From positions 126,170,001 through 126,234,000 of the forward strand of contig OX597818.1 of NCBI GenBank assembly GCA_951406725.2: 64,000 nt of DNA, in the 5' to 3' direction. The notes beneath the pieces were generated by a model. The model made no database searches. It was not told the origin of the DNA and saw only the letters and a list, made by a program, of their open reading frames with translations. This DNA comes from Octopus vulgaris. Its lineage: Eukaryota. Every line of letters starts with the position of its first letter. Position 1 is the first letter of the stretch. Below, piece after piece: positions 3,348 to 62,672 of this stretch. Both the position numbers and the translations under genes were made by a program.

Positions 3348-3915
3348 GCACACACACACACACACACACAAATATATACACATACACACATATACACACA
3401 TACACTACACGCACACGCACATATATCCACATAAACACTTATTGCCCTGAATCAAACAAAAGGGCTTTGTCACTTTGCTGCTTATCGCCCCTTTTTATGC
3501 GATCAGAATCGAGGATCACATAGGATTACTTATGGCGGTGAACAACATTTTGGTGTTATTCTTGTTTGGTAAATGACTCGGTTTGAAATCTTGTGCTGAT
3601 ATGGAAACAATGATATTGTGGAAGGTTCATTCTAGCTATTTAAATCTCTTATATAAACATGTGTTATATTAATTTTATCTATATTTCTTAATAATACTGT
3701 TTACTATGAGGTGCCAAAAAGTTTCATCGTACTTCTGTGAGCTGGTCATTGGCACAATTGCACTTCATTGCAAATATTTAGTTGGATTTCCTCCACAGAA
3801 TGCGATATGTAGCTGCAACTGCTTACGTTTTGAGTACAAATCCCGCTGAATTAGATTTGGTTTTTTGTTCCAGGATCGATAAAAATAAAAGAACACTTGA
3901 GTAGGTAAATCGATA

Positions 3916-4006
3916 TATAACAAACCCTCGACTATCGCGGGTGTTACGTTCCAAAACCCTCGGTGATAGGTGAAAATCCGTGAAGTAGAAACAGCACTGT
4001 ATATTC

Positions 4007-4066
<60 letters not shown>

Positions 4067-4074
4067 CATTATTA

Positions 4075-4120
<46 letters not shown>

Positions 4121-4127
4121 CATCATC

Positions 4128-4174
<47 letters not shown>

Positions 4175-4212
4175 TATCATTATTATCATTATTATTATTA
4201 TTATTATTATCA

Positions 4213-4267
<55 letters not shown>

Positions 4268-4335
4268 CATCATCATCATCATTATTATTATTATTATCAT
4301 TATTATCATTATTATTATTATCATCATCATCATCA

Positions 4336-4367
<32 letters not shown>

Positions 4368-4477
4368 TGTATATATTTATTTTATTATAAATGCAAAACA
4401 GCAGCACAGAGGAATCGACGTAAGCTTAAATAATAAACCGCGATAGGTGAACCGCGATATGGTGAGGGAGTGCTGTA
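3916..4477. mobile_element. Tigger/pogo-like MITE containing a ~360-bp (ATT/ATC)n expansion
   Basis: Imperfect terminal inverted repeats AAACCCTCGACTATCGCGG and CCGCGATATGGTGAGGGAGTGCTGTA; subterminal GATAGGTGAA at both ends; microsatellite 4008-4367. Confidence 0.65.
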
Positions 4478-4757
4478 GTCGACTCTACCACTCAGTCAAA
4501 ATTGTGGTCGTGTATCTGTGTCGTAAATAATTATGTAAACATTACTACTTGTTTCATTGAGTCTCATTCAAGCGTTCGAATTTTGAGCCACTCCGTGAAA
4601 CAACAAGGAGCAACAGGAAACCCCACCAATGTTTTCTTCAATTTGGTAACATAAACATATAGACACACACATACGCAGATATGCACAGGCGCACACATAC
4701 TCAGACATACACATGCTCAGACACACACAAGTATTCTTGCTCTTGCATTGATAGCGA

Positions 4758-4795
<38 letters not shown>

Positions 4796-5355
4796 AATGA
4801 ATGTATGCATGTATCTAAATTTGTGGTGATTATAAATTTTGAGATCTGAGGTCAAGTAGGTTTAATAAGATATTCAGAGTTCATTAAGGGTATGTTTTCT
4901 GGGTGGATAGAGATTGAGAATTAATTTGCGCTCTTTACGGTCGTCAATTCGTTTTGAGAAAATTTCCATGTTTGATCCCTTAACATATCCACATATCCTG
5001 CCTTAACTGAGGCACACCCTACACAGCAACTTCCATTCCTATAAACACCAACACATTTATTCCAGCCTACACACTAACACCATGATCATACCCATACCCA
5101 TACACATTTACAAGAAGATATGCACACGTGTACCCAAATATAAGCAATGACAAAAATAAATATGAATAAAATCTTCGCAAAAATATACTTTGTATACTAG
5201 ACACAGCCACATACTCATACACATTTAAATATCTTTCTCTCAGTGGATGTCTACGTGCGTTTGCGTGTATGTATGCTTTGATGTATCTAAGAATATTTAT
5301 GTATCTAAGAATATACGTATGATCGCATACACACACATACACACACACATATATA

Positions 5356-5586
5356 GGCGGTGAGCTGGCAGAAACGTTAGCACGCCGGGCGAAATGCGTA
5401 GCCGTATTTCGTCTGCTGCTACGTTCTGAGTTCAAATTCCGCCGAGGACGACTTTGCCTTTCATCCTTTCGGGGTCGATTAAATAAATACCAGTTACGCA
5501 CTGGGGTCGATATAATCGACTTAATCCGTTTGTCTGTCCTTGTTTGTCCCCTTTGTGTTTAGCCCCTTGTGGGTAGTAAAGAAATA
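5356..5586 (+). mobile_element. tRNA-derived SINE family B (tail type 1)
   Basis: GGCGGTGAGCTGGCAGAA head, GAGTTCAAATTCC B box, conserved GCCTTTCATCCTTTCGGGGTCGAT central domain, tail ending TTTAGCCCCTTGTGGGTAGTAAAGAAATA. Confidence 0.85.
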
Positions 5587-5606
5587 TATATATATACATA
5601 TATATG

Positions 5607-5932
5607 ATTATAATAAAGGGTTTTTTTGCCACAAGTTGCTTAAACCACATACCGAAAATATTAGAAATAGCAGTCAAAGGGCTACTATTACTATTACTAC
5701 AAAAATAAGTCTCCACAAACAACAGTATTTGTGACTCATATATGGTAAAAGAAGAAAGGAAAACAACGATACCACACAGTCTTTTCTTCTTTTACCATAT
5801 ATGAGTTACAAATACTGTTGTTTGTGGAGACTTATTTTCGTAGTAATAGTAATAGTAGCCCTTTGACTGCTATTTCTAATATTTTCGGTATGTGGTTTAA
5901 GCAACTTGTTGCAAAAAACCTTTTATTATAAT
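5607..5932. repeat. Fold-back inverted repeat, ~150-bp arms, 25-bp spacer
   Basis: 5607-5757 is the reverse complement of 5783-5932 with few mismatches. Confidence 0.9.
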
Positions 5933-6190
5933 TATATAATTTTTTACCTATATGGTCCTTTCCATACCGAAATACTACTAGGTGAAATTTATTGATTTTA
6001 TTAAATTAATTATATTTCACTCTTTAAGCAGTCCATAGAATATACAAAAGACAACTTTCGGGAACAGTAGTGGTTTATTGGCGGAGATGATTGTTAATTT
6101 TCCCCGCATCGTATTATGATAAGCTGAAAAAAGTTTATTTTATAGCTCTCTGTTACGAACTGGGGTTGTTTTATATGCGAATAAACACCC

Positions 6191-6487
6191 AAAAATTAGG
6201 GAATGGAGTAGATAAAATCCAGCCTAGACGTTTTAGAGCTAGCGGAAACTCGGAAATAGTAATTATCCAAACGAGGAGTAGACCGCAAACTACACTTCAG
6301 GTTAAGAATATCTTGATTATACGAAGTTTCCATTGTTATTGGGAGATCCCGTGTTAACTCGCAGGGGATTCGATCGAACACCCAGCGAATTAACACGGGA
6401 CCTCCTCGAGAGTAGTAATTGCACCGCTTGCTTTGAAATATATGTAGCCTGGGTCGTTGTTTCTACTCTATTCCTTAATTTTAGTGT
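6191..6487. repeat. Diverged inverted repeat enclosing a ~65-bp hairpin
   Basis: AAAATTAGGGAATGGAGTAGA vs TCTACTCTATTCCTTAATTTT; internal GGAGATCCCGTGTTAACTCGC / GCGAATTAACACGGGACCTCC at 6342-6405. Confidence 0.7.
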
Positions 6488-6489
6488 GT

Positions 6490-6539
<50 letters not shown>

Positions 6540-6552
6540 ACATACATACATG

Positions 6553-6630
<78 letters not shown>

Positions 6631-9700: not shown

Positions 9701-10951
9701 CGAGAGTCGGCTGTAGATTTCATAAGCTGACTAAGTTTGTCTCATGTAACGTGACCAAATGATGTTTATTTTTAGGCATAGTCCCCCTTGCATCGTTGCT
9801 TGCATAGTCCATCTCCCATCGGTGCTGCACTACTTGGATCTTGTTGGTAAAAAAAATTTCTTCCTGTTGATCAAAAACCGCCAACAGCAGATATGACATC
9901 ATCATCACTGTAAGATTGGTTCCAACCAAGTTTTTTTGTTTTTCATATTGGGGAAGATATGATAGTCAGATAAGGCCAAATCAGGAGAATAGGGAGGGTG
10001 ATCAACCACTTCAAAGCCAAAGTCAGTAAGGCAGCCATTGAAAGCATGGACTTGTGTGCTGGAGTATTGACTTGATGAAACAAGACCCCTTTTGTCAATT
10101 TCCCAGGTCGTTTGGTCTTGATAGCCATTCGCAACTGCCTCAGCAAGTGATGGGCGATCCTTTTGAAGATAGTCAATAAACATAATGTTTTTTGCATCTC
10201 AAAAGAATGAGACCATCACCTTCACTGCAGATGAAGCATGCTTGGCATTCTTTGGAGCAAGTGTAGAGGGGTGTTTCCACTGCATGGATTGTCTCGTTAT
10301 CTCAAAGTGATGACGCGAATACTCACCCTGGCTTAGGAAACGTTCAAGTAAAGCAGCTGGTTCAGCCTCAAGCAATGTCAGATTTTCTTGAGATGTGGTC
10401 AGCCTGGTGCGCCTTTGATGAAGTGAGATGTGGCGCACAACGAGCAAAAACCTTCGTCATGTCAATTTCATCATGCAGAATATTTTCAATTCCTTTTATT
10501 AGCATTGGCTATTTGATCTATAGTCAGTCATCTGTCATCCATCACCATGTGGGGAACACAGTCAATGTTTTCCTCGGTGGTGGGAGTTGCAGGACGTCCT
10601 GACCTTCAAGACTCTCCCTTCCCATGCTAAATTCAGTTGCCTGCAACTGTACTGTTGATAAAGCAATGAGCGTCATCACTTAATGTAGCAACTATGCCAG
10701 AATGAATGTCGTTGGGAGATAAACCTTCTTTCTACTTGTCCTTGATACCACCACAATGCCAAGTCTCTTGTCCGTTTCAAGAGGGGTCGCAACAAGTTAC
10801 TTTTGAAGTCTTCATTGAACAGTCAGATGTCAGTTTGTCTGGAAAGAAAACATGCAGTTATTAAGAAGAGTTGAAAATAGTGCAAGCAAGATTTCGCAGA
10901 TCTAGCACCAATCCTTCATAGGCAGCCTATCAACTTTTAAGCCCACCCTTG
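9701..10951 (-). mobile_element. Degenerate full-length mariner transposon (transposase pseudogene)
   Basis: TA-flanked imperfect TIRs (CGAGAGTCGGCTG.. / ..AAGCCCACCCTTG), 1.25 kb; frameshifted peptides DHPPYSPDLALSDYHIFPNMK, QSMQWKHPS..KVMVSFF, VFARCAPHL (degenerate WVPHL). Confidence 0.9.
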
Positions 10952-24754: not shown

Positions 24755-25145
24755 TCTTCTTCTTCTTCTTCTTCTTCTTCTTCTTCTTCTTCTTCTTCTT
24801 CTTCTTCTTCTTCTCCTCCTCCTCCTACCCCTTCTTCTTCTTCTCCTCCTCCTCCTACCCCTTCTTCTTCTTCTCCTCCTCCTCCTACCCCTTCTTCTTC
24901 TTCTTCTTCTTCTTCTTCTTCTCCTCCTCCTCCTCCTCCTCCTACCCCTTCTTCTTCTTCTTCTTCTTCTTCTTCTCCTTCTTTTTCTCCTCTTCCTTCT
25001 CCTACCCCTTCTTCTTCTTCTTCTTCTCCTCCTTCTCCTATCCCTACTTCTTCTACTTCTTCTTCTTTTTCTTCTCCTCTTCCTCCTCTTCCAACCTCTT
25101 CTTCTTCTTCTCCTCCTCCTCCTTCCTCTTTTCTCTCTCTCTCTG
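24755..25145. repeat. (TCT)n/(CCT)n polypyrimidine block with 27-bp higher-order units
   Basis: Repeated TCTTCTTCTTCTCCTCCTCCTCCTACCCC. Confidence 0.9.
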
Positions 25146-25510: not shown

Positions 25511-25857
25511 ATAGTAGTAGTAGTAGTAGTAAAGAAGAAAAAGAAGACGATGAAGAGGAAGAAGGAGAAGTAGAAGAAGAAGAAGAAGAAGAAGAAGAAG
25601 AAGAAGAAGAAGAAGAAGAAGAAGGAGAAGGAGAAGAAGAAGAAGAAGAAGAAGAAGGAGAAGAAGAAGAAGAAGAAAAGGAGGAAGAAGAAGAAGAAGA
25701 AGAAGAAGAAGGAAAAGAAGAAGAAGAAGAAGAAGAAGAAGAAGAAGAAGAAGAAGATGAAGGGGTAGGAGAAGAAGAAGAAGAAGAAGAAAAAGAAGAA
25801 GAAGAAGAAGAAGAAGAAGAAGGAGAAGGAAAAGAAGAAGAAAAAGGAAAAGAAGAA

Positions 25858-25922
<65 letters not shown>

Positions 25923-26010
25923 AGAAGAAGAAAAAAGAAGAAGAAGAAGAAGAAGAAGAAGAAGAAGAAGAAGAAGAAGGAGAAGAAGAAGAAGAAGTAG
26001 TAGTAGTGGT
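25480..26010. repeat. (AGT)n plus ~460-bp (GAA)n polypurine block
   Basis: Seen directly. Confidence 0.95.
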
Positions 26011-26250
26011 CGTAGTAATAGCTGCAAGCCATGTTGATATTATCCGAACTGTAAGGTATTTCGCAGATTCTGTTTAAACATTCTGATCAGTCACTGAAAT
26101 AGAGCCACGGCAATATATTAAGTACAAAGCAAAAGTTATGAGGACAGTTTGTTTCACCATTTACTGTCAACGTTGAAAGGAAGCTGACAAAGCTCGCCTT
26201 CTTCCCGCTGCTCTACTAAATCATGACGGACCCATATATATATATACATA

Positions 26251-26340
<90 letters not shown>

Positions 26341-26341
<1 letters not shown>

Positions 26342-26550
26342 TAGAAAAATTGAGGTAATCAGATCAGATGGTTCATATTTGTAGATATTTATTTATATAT
26401 TACATTTTTTACATATATATCATATCATTCGGATTAGCGCTTGCTCCCATTCTAGTGGGTTTTCAAATCAAATCAGTTGTGGGTAGTTTGAACCTTTTTA
26501 TAGTTTCGTAGTAGTAGGTGAGGAGGAAGTGAGACAGAGAGAAAATATGT

Positions 26551-26606
<56 letters not shown>

Positions 26607-26810
26607 ATTTATATCTGAGAGTGAAGAAGTGTTATTTCCGTTGGTCTGCTGGACCCCCTGTGGTTTTATAAGAACTTTGGCTGTCCATTTCAATGTCACT
26701 GAGTGTGTGTTGTGCATAGGTTGGCCTGGCAAATGTCATTTGGGGTCACACTTTCTATGATCATTCTGTGGAGGTGTGTGTGTGTGTGTGTCTCTGTGTG
26801 TGTGTGTGTG

Positions 26811-26854
<44 letters not shown>

Positions 26855-27979
26855 TCTGTGTGTTTGGAGAAGGGGAGAGAGACACAAAAAGAGAAAAGGA
26901 AAATAAAAATAATAATAATAAAAATAAAAATTAAAAAATTAAAAAAATAAAATAAAAACAAAAAATAAAAAATAAAATAAAAAAATATAAAGAATAAATA
27001 AAAATATAAAGAATAAAAAATAAAAAAATAAAAATAAAAATAAAAATAAGGGAGGAAGTGGAGAAGAAAAAATATTTTTGTGTGTTGATATTTATACCAA
27101 CACATATATATACACACACACAGACTTATACATAAAATATTTGAAAAAACCTTTTTATCGGTTCAAAATGAACAACCAAATTATACCATCTTGAAAGTTG
27201 TATGTCATAGGAAAGTTAAAATTAAAGTGACAATTAAAGGGTAAAGATGGAAGTGAATTATAAAGATAATAATATAATATGATGTATATAACAGGCAATA
27301 CACACATCTACACACACACAGATTTTTCCTTCAATGTATGTTGAGTAAAGTTTCAGCCATTTAATTTGGGGGAGAACTTAGCTATGAAATGTTTTTCCAT
27401 ATTCCTCCTGAAGGGGGTGTCATTCTTCGGACACTTGAAAAACATTTCATAGCTAAGTTCTCCCCCAAATTAAATGGCTGAAACTTTACTCAACATACAT
27501 TGAAGGAAAAATCTGTGTGTGTGTAGATGTGTGTATTGCCTGTTATATACATCATATTATATTATTATCTTTATAATTCACTTCCATCTTTACCCTTTAA
27601 TTGTCACTTTAATTTTAACTTTCCTATGACATACAACTTTCAAGATGGTATAATTTGGTTGTTCATTTTGAACCGATAAAAAGGTTTTTTCAAATATTTT
27701 ATGTATAAGTCTGTGTGTGTGTATATATATGTGTTGGTATAAATATCAACACACAAAAATATTTTTTCTTCTCCACTTCCTCCCTTATTTTTATTTTTAT
27801 TTTTATTTTTTTATTTTTTATTCTTTATATTTTTATTTATTCTTTATATTTTTTTATTTTATTTTTTATTTTTTGTTTTTATTTTATTTTTTTAATTTTT
27901 TAATTTTTTATTTTTATTATTATTATTTTTATTTTCCCTTTTCTCTTTTTGTGTCTCTCTCCTTCTCCAAACACACAGA

Positions 27980-28017
<38 letters not shown>

Positions 28018-28225
28018 AAAACACACACAGACACACAGAGACACACACACACACACACCTCCACAGAATGATCATAGAAAGTGTGACCCCAAATGACATT
28101 TGCCAGGCCAACCTATGCACAACACACACTCAGTGACATTGAAATGGACAGCCAAAGTTCTTATAAAACCACAGGGGGTCCAGCAGACCAACGGAAATAA
28201 CACTTCTTCACTCTCAGATATAAAT

Positions 28226-28281
<56 letters not shown>

Positions 28282-28526
28282 ACATATTTTCTCTCTGTCT
28301 CACTTCCTCCTCACCTACTACTACGAAACTATAAAAAGGTTCAAACTACCCACAACTGATTTGATTTGAAAACCCACTAGAATGGGAGCAAGCGCTAATC
28401 CGAATGATATGATATATATGTAAAAAATGTAATATATAAATAAATATCTACAAATATGAACCATCTGATCTGATTACCTCAATTTTTCTAATATATAATA
28501 CCTGTACATCATCTCCAAACCTTCCG
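26341..28526. mobile_element. 2.2-kb palindrome: 5'-truncated Penelope-like element with inverted duplication
   Basis: Arms 26341-27397 and 27437-28493 are near-identical reverse complements around a 39-bp spacer; (TA)n flanks; ~28-nt extra tail on the right arm only. Confidence 0.75.
27353..27442 (-). pseudogene. C-terminal remnant of a PLE GIY-YIG endonuclease ORF
   Basis: Reads FFKCPKNDTPFRRNMEKHFIAKFSPKLNG-stop through spacer and left arm, fitting the R..xE..FI....P.LN terminal motif of GIY-YIG domains; EKHFIAKFSPKLNG-stop repeated on + at 27437-27481. Confidence 0.65.
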
Positions 28527-28527
28527 A

Positions 28528-28569
<42 letters not shown>

Positions 28570-28630
28570 CACACACACACAAACACGTGTACTTACATAC
28601 ATACACACACATATATACTTACATACATAT

Positions 28631-28786
28631 GGAGTGGATGTGTGGTAAGTAGCTTGCTTACCAACCACATGGTTCCGGGTTCAGTCCCACTGCGTGGCAC
28701 CTTGGACAAGTGTCTTCTGCTATAGCCTCGGGCCGACCAAAGCCTTGTGAGTGAATTTGGTAGACGGAAACTGAAAGAAGCCCGTC

Positions 28787-28851
<65 letters not shown>

Positions 28852-29080
28852 TGTGTGTGTTTGTGTGTCTGTATTTGTCCCCCTAGCATTGCTTGGCAAC
28901 CGATGCTGGTGTGTTCATGTCCCCGTTACTTAGCGGTTCGGCAAAAGAGACCGATAGAATAAGTACTTGGCTTACAAAAGAATAATTCCCGGGGTCGAGT
29001 TGCTCGATTAAAGGCGGTACTCCAGCATGGCCGCAGTCAAATAACTGAAAGAAGTAAAAGAGTAAAAGAGTAAAAGAGTA
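28631..29080 (+). mobile_element. SINE family A
   Basis: Head to (GTAAAAGA)n tail with expanded internal (TA)n. Confidence 0.85.
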
Positions 29081-29194
29081 TATATATATACACACACACT
29101 CACACAAACACGTGTACTTACATACGTACACATACTCACACACACACATATATACTTACATACATATATACATACATACACACACATATATATG

Positions 29195-58936: not shown

Positions 58937-59485
58937 GAGTGAGAGAGCAGTGCATGCCATCAAAGTGATACTGGGATAAAATATACGAAGCCCAGTATAC
59001 CCATCATGACTACCCGTCTGATAAGGGTACACTAGGCACATGCATCACAACCATATGTGCGTGACATGGTGATCTCATATCAAGATAAACAGCACATGCC
59101 CTTGCAGGTGGGGCCCAGTTAGAATCTTCTTCTAGTCGAGTAAGCCATCCCGCTCAAAAGGTCCCTGAATAAGGGTTATTTAGGGATGTTGAACGAAACA
59201 TTCATGTTTCCAGGGGTGAATTATTCAAACCCCAAAGAATCCCTCTCAACACATGGCTATGATGCTCCCCCACTACTTCTGCACATGATCAGAGATGCAC
59301 ATATCATCAGCCACCAAGGGACATGCTCAACTGGTTAAAGTCAAACAACTGACAAGCAAATCTGTGGTATTGAGCAGAATATTTGTTGTAGCCCATCTTT
59401 TATACCAAGACAAAACAATGTACGTGATAACACTTCCAATCAGTTAAGATCATAAGCCACGAGAGCCACTGCCTGCTACTGCATC
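58936..59485. mobile_element. Unclassified ~550-bp probable interspersed element between (TTA)n and (TCA)n
   Basis: Complex, higher-GC block with sharp microsatellite boundaries beside the Dong-type cluster; single copy here. Confidence 0.35.
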
Positions 59486-59511
59486 ATCATCATCATCATC
59501 AACATCATCAC

Positions 59512-59565
<54 letters not shown>

Positions 59566-59569
59566 TATT

Positions 59570-60262
59570 AGTCTTTAACGCTTGATTTTGTGCTGTTACT
59601 AACAAACTTTCTCTCTCCCTTTTCTGCCTTCCTTTCTGTAACCATAGCCATGTCACACTACAACTATTTGCTACAACTATTTTAGGGAATCTACCATGCA
59701 AGGCCTTCTCCTGCCAGTCAGATAACTTTTGTCCTTTTTTCTGGTTCATAATTTCATAGGAGTCTATACCTACTCTAGCTAGCTCCACGCAGTTTCCTAC
59801 TGTTATTAGCCCTATCCACCTTTTCTAGGTAAGTATAATCTTGCTACTCCTGTTCTTTGGTGGAGTTCTCCATTCATATTGAATTCTTTCTTACTTCTTC
59901 TGTGTAGCTTTCCTAATTCAGTTTTTATCCAATCTACAAAAGCTGCTGAGTATCTAAGTAATGATACTGCCCAAGTATTTACAGCCTTCACCAAATTCGG
60001 ACCATTTAGCTTTGATTTCATTAGATTCCTCACACTTCTGATGTACTCCTTCTCAATTTTCGTTTTCACTTCTATAGATAGTACTCTGTCAGTTTCTAGT
60101 ACTCCCAGATACTTATAAATTTCTCCTTTGAATGATTTTAATATCTAGCCATCTGGTAATTCGATGTCATCACTGATGGCTACCTGTCCCCTTTTCATGA
60201 CTAATATTGCACACTTATCTACACTTATCTATGCCAAATTCGTATATCTTTGCTGAAGAGCC
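59570..60262 (-). mobile_element. R4/Dong-type LINE fragment (RT C-terminal region)
   Basis: FGIDKC, YKYLGV, LNGPNLVKAVNTWAVSLLRYSA, RLYLPRKGG, WQEKALHG, ESLLVTAQNQALKT. Confidence 0.85.
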
Positions 60263-60301
60263 TTATCATTATTATTATTGTTGTTATTGTTGTTGTTGTT
60301 G

Positions 60302-61583
<1,282 letters not shown>

Positions 61584-61587
<4 letters not shown>

Positions 61588-62604
61588 TAGTTTTATTTTT
61601 ATAGCGTGCTTTCACTTCACTACCGAACGCAGCTCTGTGTGCCTTGGGTATGTGCTGTGATTTGTTGTGATGCTCTGATGGTTATTGTATGGAAAGTGTT
61701 CTGCATAGGATGTGTGCAGTGCCTAGTAGTGCAATTTTCTGTATGTTATATGTGTTTGTAAGTCCTGGTGTTTTTGTTATGTATTTGTCTGAATATTTTT
61801 TTATCATGCCTAATACCTACTATGATAGGAATTGTTTCTGTTTTCAGGTTCCACATTCTAGTTACCTCTATTTCCAGGTCTTTGTATTTTGAGAGTTTCT
61901 CCATTTCTTTTAGAGACACGTTGTCATCTGCCGGTATTGATACATCAATTAGAAAGCATTTTTTTTCTTCATGATCTCTGACAACTATATCTGGTCTGTT
62001 GGCCTTAATTTCTCTATCTGTGTGTATCGGCATATCCCAGAATATGGTTGCTTTCTCGTTTTCTGTGACCTTTTCTGGTGTGTGCCTATACCATCTTTTT
62101 TCTGTTGTTATTCCATAATGTTGGCATAGCTTCCAATGTATGTAGGTTCCAACTCTGTCATGTCTGTGAATATATTCCTTCTTAGCCAGGACTGGGCAGC
62201 TAGAGATAATATGATTTATTGTTTCTTGTCCATCTCCACATATTCTGCAGTTACTTGTAATATTTCTTTTCATTACATGTTTTTGGTAATTTCTGGTGGG
62301 GAGGCTTTGGTCTTGTGCTGCAATTAAAAATCCCTCTGTTTCTGCTTTGAGTCCTGAGCTTCTCAACCATTGCTGGGATTTTTCTTTGTCTATTTCTTTT
62401 GCGTTTAGTTTAGTGCAGTATTTAACATGAAGGGGTTTTTCTCGCCATCGTTTTATCATGGCTCGTTGCTGTTCTATTTTTAGTTTGGATTTCATTTGTT
62501 TTATAGCTTTTGTTGTTTCTTCATCATCTTCTTCTTCTTCTTTGTGTTTATTAGGTGGTATGATTTCTTGTTTGTATTTGTCAGCTTCCTTAAATACTGA
62601 GAAC
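61584..62604 (-). mobile_element. 5'-truncated R4/Dong-type LINE, best preserved, in (TAA)n
   Basis: ORF 61746-62495: ETEGFLIAAQDQ, CRICGDGQETINHIISSC, RHDRV, NRPDIVV..LIDVSIP, KLSKY; (TTA)n both sides. Confidence 0.92.
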
Positions 62605-62672
62605 TTATTATTATTATTATTATTATAATACTTATTATTATTATTATTATTATTATATTATTATTATAATAC

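What the first reader, a model, noticed from the sequence alone, without database searches (positions are those of the whole stretch)
26341..28526. 2.2-kb near-perfect palindrome hinged on a GIY-YIG C-terminus
Seen: ~1.06-kb arms that differ only by a few substitutions and homopolymer/microsatellite indels, a 39-bp spacer and (TA)n flanks. The spacer read on the minus strand is in frame with the arm and gives FFKCPKNDTPFRRNMEKHFIAKFSPKLNG-stop. The two copies meet at a GAAAAA microhomology, and only the right arm has a ~28-nt extra end. Known: R..E..FI....P.LN ends PLE GIY-YIG domains, and PLEs form inverted truncated duplications. Inference: a young PLE insertion with a ~1-kb microsatellite-filled 3' region, able to form a cruciform or a 1-kb dsRNA.
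Basis: partly seen in the sequence, partly recalled or inferred. Interest (0 to 1): 0.72.

Follow-up and report, generated by a model that had tools for sequence, protein, structure and literature searches.

The report
Head-to-head Penelope retrotransposon insertion
This mirror-image stretch of DNA is two cut-short tail ends of a young, multi-copy jumping gene joined head to head inside a TA repeat, a known insertion shape that this family makes routinely, likely because its enzyme starts one DNA copy from each strand of the target at two fixed start points on its RNA.

Summary
The palindrome is real in the assembly: arms 26335-27397 and 27437-28497, 39-nt spacer, 3 substitutions and 4 small indels. 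It is two 5'-truncated copies of a young Neptune-type Penelope-like element (PLE; 289 exact 3'-end matches in this genome; RT + GIY-YIG in full copies). The left copy ends tail-less; the right carries a 30-nt tail. The shape is routine: 30 of 32 two-arm inverted loci on C1-C12 pair one tailed with one tail-less end, and arms share rare alleles (15 of 15 informative loci). Likely mechanism: both strands of a (TA)n target prime reverse transcription at two RNA sites, and the two cDNAs join by 0-5 nt microhomology. Two first-reader details fail: the microhomology is 1 nt, not GAAAAA, and 'FF' is a junction artefact (the element reads FY). No read spanning the junction was available; dsRNA and cruciform are untested. 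Inverted truncated copies, tails and two start sites are published. The parent has an ORF1 overlapping RT at a conserved U UUU UUA site (likely -1 frameshift) and a degenerate hammerhead. The scan noted the two-end rule and the frameshift before on other DNA.

The parts
26234..26341 (.). Left (TA)n tract, target microsatellite; its last 7 nt overlap the element's tail-less end
26335..27437 (-). Left copy: 5'-truncated PLE, positions 3791-4949 of the natural full-length copy L037; ends at the tail-less site
27353..27436 (-). Last 27 codons of the GIY-YIG domain (KCPK...SPKLNG) plus stop codon 27353-27355
27398..27436 (-). 39-nt spacer: element sequence present only in the left copy, which reaches 40 nt further 5' than the right copy
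27437..27437 (.). Head-to-head junction; one shared base, no inserted bases
   Evidence: junction 24-mer unique in the genome
27437..28527 (+). Right copy: 5'-truncated PLE, element positions 3831-4979; last 14 codons, stop 27479-27481, 3' UTR and tail
27482..28497 (+). The element's own 3' UTR / pLTR with (TG)n, T-rich and (CA)n tracts; mirrored at 26335-27352
   Evidence: same tracts in full-length copy L037
28330..28338 (+). TATA-like box (mirror 26494-26502), 34-36 nt upstream of the family's 5'-end hotspot at window 28364-28366; likely promoter (inferred)
   Evidence: 15 of 130 arms start at element 4816-4818
28358..28405 (+). Degenerate minimal type-I hammerhead-like motif (U3-A8 core, CCCA/UGGG stem II, GCAA in place of GAAA, palindromic GCGC, UA); mirror 26427-26474 on the minus strand
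   Evidence: U3-A8 variant described in PMC4209133; no Rfam hammerhead hit
28498..28527 (+). 30-nt tail, on the right copy only; in tandem copies it runs straight into the element's 5' body
28528..28569 (.). Right (TA)n tract, target microsatellite

Best explanation
The palindrome is two 5'-truncated copies of a young Neptune-type Penelope-like retrotransposon joined head to head in a (TA)n tract, likely made in one insertion event in which both target strands primed reverse transcription of RNA from one source element. Shown: the identity of the arms, the family's two fixed 3' ends (element 4949 and 4979), their pairing in inverted loci, shared alleles between arms, short junction microhomologies and (TA)n targets. 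Inferred: (1) the GIY-YIG domain nicks both strands of (TA)n; (2) one 3'-OH primes at the tail-less site and the other 30 nt further 3', each probably helped by pairing to a UA-rich tract of the RNA (AAUAUAUA ends the tail-less site; UACAUAUAU follows the tail); (3) both cDNAs stopped after about 1.1 kb, 40 nt apart; (4) their 3' ends were joined through 1 nt of homology and filled in, so the extra 39 nt of the longer cDNA became the spacer. The palindrome is a by-product; no function is indicated.
For: Arm matches 40 other places at 100% in the first search; 289 exact 3'-end matches; 94 tailed and 166 tail-less ends by exact pattern. Full-length copies carry RVT_1 and GIY-YIG above Pfam cut-offs. 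On C1-C12, 156 listed ends form 120 loci; 33 have divergent arms and none of 35 multi-end loci is convergent; 30 of 32 two-arm inverted loci are tailed + tail-less (0.46 expected if independent, binomial p 1.5e-8). At substitution sites, both arms carry the minor allele in 15 of 15 informative inverted loci, including this one. Junction microhomology in 32 clean of 40 tailed/tail-less junctions averages 1.94 nt against 0.68 +/- 0.18 for shifted breakpoints, reached by 0 of 20,000 draws. The tail-less arm is the longer by more than 10 nt in 10 of 40 loci, including this one, which one fold-back cannot give because the tail is not in that arm. Nearly all 3' ends run into (TA)n; 2 of 55 terminal tailed ends keep the C of the RNA's TACATATAT tract, and contigs of 3 of 4 runs end at that tract's last base. 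In vitro, an anole PLE cuts and extends both strands and starts at two sites that delimit the tail (PMC11167929).
Against: No read or contig from this individual was available; none of 4 public runs showed a bridge over the junction, so an assembly error is not formally excluded. Shared alleles could also come from gene conversion between arms after insertion. A C-run indel at element 4377 is discordant between arms in 4 loci and was set aside as homopolymer noise. In 18 of 40 loci the tailed arm is the longer, which a single fold-back followed by annealing at the TA tract would also explain. 14 of 40 junctions are near-symmetric (3.7 expected; 7 of 33 against 1.7 outside the 5' hotspot), several at self-complementary spots, which two fully independent cDNAs do not predict and which needs coupling of the two syntheses. 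Frangieh et al. report initiation without homology to the cut DNA and no difference of start site between strands, so neither the one-of-each pairing nor the UA-tract pairing follows directly from that paper. No target-site duplication can be read in (TA)n. The junction sets were hand-listed and are enriched for young, long copies.
Confidence: 0.8

Rival explanations
1. One cDNA folded back on itself and copied its own strand, giving the mirror arm with a 39-nt loop.
For: Arms are nearly identical and share alleles; near-symmetric junctions are in excess, some at small palindromes of the element; PMC3846280 reads junction palindromes as self-priming.
Against: Here the loop belongs to the tail-less arm, so that arm would be the template, yet the copied arm carries 30 nt that the template lacks. 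There is 1 nt of pairing at the turn. 10 of 40 loci have this polarity.
Confidence: 0.07
2. Assembly or read artefact: a fold-back chimeric read, or a misjoin of two copies from different loci.
For: No independent contig was seen to bridge the junction in 4 runs; 4 of 6 tested arm differences are rare alleles of the left arm and 1 of the right, as consensus errors would be.
Against: The mirror stops exactly at the element's biological end, and one side alone has the tail. The flanks differ. The arms overlap by 1 nt, too little for a misjoin. The same architecture recurs at 40 or more loci with different junctions.
Confidence: 0.04
3. Self-priming on an antisense transcript of the element, as proposed for head-to-head pLTRs in Adineta.
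For: Proposed in PMC3846280 for the same geometry.
Against: It predicts a palindrome at the junction and does not predict two fixed, different outer ends on (TA)n; this junction has 1 nt of homology.
Confidence: 0.04
4. A single insertion later duplicated in inverted form by DNA repair, or two separate insertions homogenised by gene conversion.
For: Palindromes are unstable, and conversion can equalise arms (established knowledge).
Against: Repair would copy flank or the same end; two insertions would leave (TA)n between the heads (seen in only 2 of 44 junctions, L070 and L075) and would pair end types at random.
Confidence: 0.05

Closest known systems
EN+ Penelope-like elements with an inverted 5'-truncated copy and a 30-40 bp tail on one end (Craig et al. 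2021, PMC8557442; Adineta Pen2a, PMC3846280)
   Same: Head-to-head truncated copy, tail at one end only, partial tandems, (TA)n targets, RT with C-terminal GIY-YIG, CCHH and linker CxxC motifs.
   Different: Here both arms are 1.06 kb with only 39 nt between them. The family lets the pairing of ends and the shared source of arms be counted, which the passages read do not do. The parent has a separate ORF1.
Poseidon from Anolis carolinensis (PAc) in vitro (Frangieh et al. 2024, PMC11167929)
   Same: Two reverse-transcription start sites that delimit the tail; both target strands cut and extended; AT-rich targets.
   Different: PAc is single-ORF Penelope/Poseidon with the tail inside the ORF start, initiates without homology to the target and shows no strand difference. 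This family has both start sites on TA-like tracts and pairs one of each.
Neptune clade (Neptune1_Nv, Neptune-1_Ac, DrerioNep1 in Fig. S2 of PMC8557442; killifish Neptune in PMC12602865)
   Same: C-x4-CxxC linker followed by a long insert of about 30 residues before the GIY strand, as in the Neptune rows and unlike the short Nematis rows; (TA)n preference; the killifish element also has an upstream ORF.
   Different: The C-terminus (E..FI....P.LN) looks more like the Nematis and Poseidon rows than the Neptune GLN ending. No tree with named references was built. The killifish ORF1 is 420 nt and reported as non-overlapping.
L1 twin priming (recalled, not from a call)
   Same: Both target strands prime; two cDNAs are joined by short microhomology, giving an inversion.
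   Different: In L1 the second primer anneals internally upstream, so the arms are different parts of the RNA; here both start at the 3' end, so the arms are the same sequence and form a palindrome.

Membership tests
EN+ Penelope-like elements | RT domain followed by C-terminal GIY-YIG endonuclease | tested here: met
   RVT_1 40.2 bits (cut-off 29.6) and GIY-YIG 26.3 (22.6) in L036
EN+ Penelope-like elements | CCHH motif with two cysteines between GIY and YIG | tested here: met
   VIYCITCPTCKENYVG followed by two conserved His in alignment A1; definition in PMC8557442
EN+ Penelope-like elements | pLTRs from partial tandems or inverted truncated copies | tested here: met
   Tandems L037, L047, L051; 44 inverted junctions
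EN+ Penelope-like elements | Optional 30-40 nt tail at one end | tested here: met
   30 nt; 58 of 130 arms end at 4979 and 62 at 4949
EN+ Penelope-like elements | Single ORF (as described in PMC8557442 and PMC6431247) | tested here: not met
   Separate 535-aa ORF1 overlapping the RT frame by -1 in L037; slip site intact in 11 of 12 copies that cover it. Fig. 1 of PMC8557442, not seen, may mark ORF1 as optional for some EN+ clade
EN+ Penelope-like elements | Canonical minimal hammerhead in the pLTR | tested here: not met
   No Rfam hammerhead hit; a degenerate motif with U3-A8 and C at position 13 is present; canonical cores found in 9 of 21 relatives scanned
EN+ Penelope-like elements | Target-site duplication of variable length | not testable with these tools
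   Both flanks are (TA)n and no empty allele was available
Neptune clade | CX2-5CxxC finger in the RT-EN linker | tested here: met
   ECGDGRCGTC, conserved in A1; shared with Nematis and Naiad
Neptune clade | Long spacing between CxxC and GIY, unlike Nematis | tested here: met
   Visual comparison with Fig. S2 of PMC8557442
Neptune clade | (TA)n insertion preference | tested here: met
   3' flanks of 130 arms; the tail-less search pattern itself required TA, the tailed one did not
Neptune clade | RT phylogeny groups with named Neptune elements | not tested
Naiad clade | GIY-YIG N-terminal to RT | tested here: not met
   GIY-YIG is C-terminal
Programmed -1 ribosomal frameshift | In-frame X XXY YYZ heptamer in the ORF overlap, conserved in relatives | tested here: met
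   T TTT TTA in this family and in 4 of the 7 closest relatives with upstream DNA; 2 more keep the FL/FF overlap without a regex heptamer; 1 has no ORF1
Programmed -1 ribosomal frameshift | Stimulatory hairpin or pseudoknot 3' of the heptamer | tested here: not met
   Only weak folds, -4 to -9 kcal/mol; pseudoknots were not modelled
Programmed -1 ribosomal frameshift | Fusion protein or measured slippage | not testable with these tools
   Needs a reporter assay, ribosome profiling or proteomics

The most novel reading that the evidence does not exclude
The family's copies record a fixed asymmetry in PLE integration: one RNP nicks both strands of (TA)n and primes one strand at each of two UA-rich RNA sites by base pairing, from RNA of one source element and with coupled synthesis. 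The inverted pLTR, the tail and microsatellite targeting would then be one mechanism, carried out by an RT-endonuclease that is made as a -1 frameshift fusion with a separate ORF1.
Probability: 0.45. Interest if true: 0.6.

Novelty: new member of a known kind. Interest (0 to 1): 0.33.

Why it matters
The locus itself is one of dozens of by-products and is ordinary. The family is of modest use. It is young, has copies with both ORFs open, and gives countable rules (one tailed plus one tail-less end, arms from one source, 0-5 nt joins, start sites on TA-like tracts) for a step that PMC8557442 names as open: how PLEs form inverted repeats and why they prefer microsatellites. It also keeps seeding long near-perfect palindromes in this genome, which may matter for stability and for assembly. 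If the ORF1 frameshift is real, the single-ORF description of endonuclease-bearing PLEs is incomplete for this lineage.

Tried and rejected
GAAAAA microhomology: rejected, 1 nt exact. 29-aa peptide: rejected in favour of 27 aa. Rfam: only hairpin-driven miRNA and snoRNA matches below gathering scores in the window; no hammerhead there or in 3 long copies. Junction in public runs: best share 0.86 of words; 4 runs laid, no bridge among the pieces shown and no joint listed; contigs show presence only and may be of other individuals, so this is no evidence of absence. No RNA holder listed; the 4 runs are only guessed to be RNA, so expression is not claimed. An intron fusing ORF1 to RT: one ungapped contig in each of those 4 runs crosses the overlap and no joint lies there; a spliced form is not excluded. 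Arms from two different source elements: not supported; of 6 arm differences tested against family copies, 5 are rare or absent on one side and 1 was uninformative. Hammerhead cleavage as the cause of the 5' hotspot: 0 of 130 arms start at the predicted cut (4850) against 15 at 4816-4818; tail-less arms starting at 4850 sit at the 100-nt length filter. ORF1 identity: no Pfam family; Atlas best score 0.78, a lead only; 2 homologues found among proteins of 294-937 aa. Host gene: 20 of 304 window ORFs scanned gave only sub-threshold zf-RVT, transposase and acidic low-complexity hits; this does not exclude an intronic position. (TCT)n/(AAG)n arrays upstream: unrelated microsatellites, not part of the element. 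Literature searches: Penelope + Neptune + ribosomal frameshift 0 papers; Penelope-like + slippery + frameshift 0; Terminon + Athena + programmed + frameshift 0; five-term search 1 paper, PMC8557442; Penelope + twin priming + inverted 2 papers, listing only, not read. No structure prediction, complex prediction or tree was run. Small-RNA and A-to-I editing could not be tested.

Full report
1. Observation. Aligning the left arm with the reverse complement of the right gives arms at 26335-27397 and 27437-28497 with 3 substitutions and 4 indels of 1-2 nt, a 39-nt spacer and (TA)n on both sides. The right arm continues for 30 nt that the left lacks (28498-28527). The minus strand through the spacer is open and ends ...SPKLNG-stop. 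The junction 24-mer is unique in the 2.8-Gb assembly.

2. What the arms are. A 341-nt piece gave 810 candidates; the 40 scored all matched at 100%, the window's own place among them. A 32-mer from the 3' end matches 289 times. [quoted passage not shown] By the definitions and Fig. S2 of PMC8557442 this is an EN+ Penelope-like element of Neptune type by motif; no tree was built. Using natural copy L037 as ruler (4,979 nt), the left copy covers 3791-4949 and the right 3831-4979. The microsatellite-rich kilobase is the element's own 3' UTR. The spacer is the 39 nt by which the left copy outruns the right.

3. Census. The family has two fixed 3' ends: of 130 arms, 62 end at 4949 and 58 at 4979; exact patterns find 166 and 94 genome-wide. 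On C1-C12, where both lists were complete, 156 ends form 120 loci: 85 single, 32 two-arm inverted, 1 three-arm and 2 direct tandems. None of the 35 multi-end loci is tail to tail, and 30 of the 32 pair one tailed with one tail-less end (0.46 expected, p 1.5e-8). I fetched all 22 tailed singles and 9 of 63 tail-less singles; 7 tailed singles proved to have an inverted partner missed by the exact pattern, so at least 40 of 120 loci are inverted. Of 44 hand-listed inverted junctions, 40 are tailed + tail-less, 3 tail-less twice and 1 tailed twice; this set overlaps the census and is enriched for long young copies. In 32 cleanly aligned of the 40, microhomology is 0-5 nt, mean 1.94 against 0.68 for shifted breakpoints (0 of 20,000 draws); 8 junctions were dropped as poorly anchored or ambiguous. 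Both arms carry the minor allele in 15 of 15 informative inverted loci, this one included; a C-run indel discordant in 4 loci was treated as homopolymer noise. The tail-less arm is longer in 10 of 40, the tailed in 18, and 14 lie within 45 nt of each other, more than permutation gives.

4. Mechanism. Shown in vitro for another PLE: both target strands are cut and extended, and reverse transcription starts at two internal sites that bound the tail (PMC11167929). Inferred here: each strand of the nicked (TA)n primes one cDNA, one at 4949 and one at 4979, from RNA of one source element; both stop early; the ends are joined by short homology. Both start sites sit on TA-like tracts, AATATATA at 4942-4949 and TACATATAT after 4979; 2 of 55 terminal tailed ends keep the C and contigs in 3 of 4 runs stop at the end of that tract, which fits pairing with the target. 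This differs from the anole result of initiation without homology. A single fold-back fails at this locus because the would-be copy carries a tail that its template lacks. An artefact is unlikely for the same reason and because the flanks differ, but no spanning read was seen. The excess of near-symmetric junctions is not explained by two independent cDNAs and suggests coupled synthesis or some fold-backs.

5. (a) 15 of 130 arms start at 4816-4818, 34-36 nt after a TATAAAAAG box: likely a transcription start, with short solo copies as run-off products (inferred). (b) Each arm holds a hammerhead-shaped motif with the U3-A8 core described in PMC4209133 but C for A13; no arm starts at its predicted cut; 9 of 21 relatives scanned have canonical cores. 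My scan admitted the C variant after I had seen it, so the motif call is post hoc. (c) Full-length copies have a 535-aa ORF1 overlapping the RT frame at T TTT TTA GGG. The site is intact in 11 of 12 covering copies, ORF1 is open up to it in 9 and the RT frame in 7, and 32 places match it exactly. I examined 35 of the 96 related loci fetched: among the 7 closest with upstream DNA, 6 have an ORF1 in the matching frame and 4 the same heptamer; among 28 more distant ones, 11 have such an ORF, 5 have T TTA AAC and 1 T TTT TTA, while many are single-ORF types. ORF1 is homologous between this family and L111 and L115 (E 9e-15 and 8e-19). No strong stimulatory hairpin was found. A -1 frameshift is likely but unmeasured. 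That the heptamers are those of retroviral and coronaviral sites is recalled, not from a call.

6. Known and new. Inverted 5'-truncated copies, one-sided tails and microsatellite bias are described (PMC8557442, PMC3846280). Two start sites are shown (PMC11167929). EN+ PLEs are described as single-ORF and two-ORF forms as lacking EN (PMC8557442 abstract; PMC6431247), yet the Fig. 1 legend of PMC8557442 mentions an ORF1 with a frameshift without naming the clade, and a killifish Neptune has an upstream ORF (PMC12602865). My searches found no paper on a slippery site in EN+ PLEs, but most subscription papers are not searched. Earlier notes of this scan, looked up after my analysis, report the frameshift and two-site palindromes on other DNA; they are unreviewed and are not counted as support.

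7. Papers seen. PMC8557442: passages, whole Introduction, supplement search hits and parts 54-55 of 59; figures not seen, and Fig. 1 bears on the ORF1 claim. PMC11167929: parts 1-2 of 4 (main text); supplements not seen. PMC3846280, PMC4209133, PMC12602865, PMC6431247, PMC6515669 and bioRxiv 10.64898/2026.07.22.740005: passages only. L1 twin priming and the Terminon paper: recalled.

8. Verdict. Real in the assembly and correctly identified in outline; a new member of a known kind. The locus is ordinary. The family offers countable support for two-strand, two-site priming and a likely frameshift. Interest 0.33.

Noticed in passing
L037:2781-4388 and 4298-6625 (G000 C2): Parent element has a 535-aa ORF1 without Pfam match overlapping the RT-GIY-YIG frame at T TTT TTA GGG; ORF1 and heptamer are conserved in relatives at 43-47% RT identity.
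   Followed up: yes
window 28358-28405 and 26427-26474: Degenerate hammerhead-like motif with U3-A8 core and C at position 13, kept almost unchanged across copies.
   Followed up: partly
L072, small palindrome of about 290 nt beside the main insertion (G000 C8 near 99305400): A sister family with a diverged pLTR but nearly the same tail region forms its own tailed + tail-less palindrome, starts 2 nt before a CUGAUGA core and also lacks the GAAA strand; it inserted into the (TA)n left by the first element or the reverse.
   Followed up: partly
element 4816-4818 (window 28364-28366): 5'-end hotspot 34-36 nt below a TATA-like box; gives solo 134-164 nt copies and tiny palindromes.
   Followed up: partly
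L042, L048, L062, L008: Some inverted loci have extra pieces at the junction or small internal rearrangements, which suggests more than two template jumps.
   Followed up: no
L102 (G000 C1 68504456 and 68507474): Two short tail-less copies 3 kb apart in the same orientation with the same flanking text; probably a local duplication after insertion.
   Followed up: no
window 28556-28630 and 29079-29167: A CA/TA-rich stretch of about 75 nt is repeated on both sides of a SINE-like repeat (about 28630-29070; 9-11 similar pieces in the window).
   Followed up: partly
window 24755-25134 and 25532-25997: Long (TCT)n and (AAG)n arrays face each other 400 nt apart just upstream; no similarity to the element.
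   Followed up: partly
window 61749-62657 (-), 59453-60735 (-), 9723-10456 (-): Fragments resembling other transposons: sub-threshold zf-RVT and Transposase_1 hits; the 59-60 kb pieces look LINE-like by eye only.
   Followed up: partly
L191-L206; P0003, P0008, P0060, P0091: Relatives of this animal retrotransposon sit in bacterial MAGs and symbiont assemblies, probably host contamination.
   Followed up: no
L140, L146, L152, L153: Distant EN+ relatives have 500-720 aa ORF1s (190 aa visible in L152) ending at or near an in-frame T TTA AAC, three with the stop right after it.
   Followed up: partly
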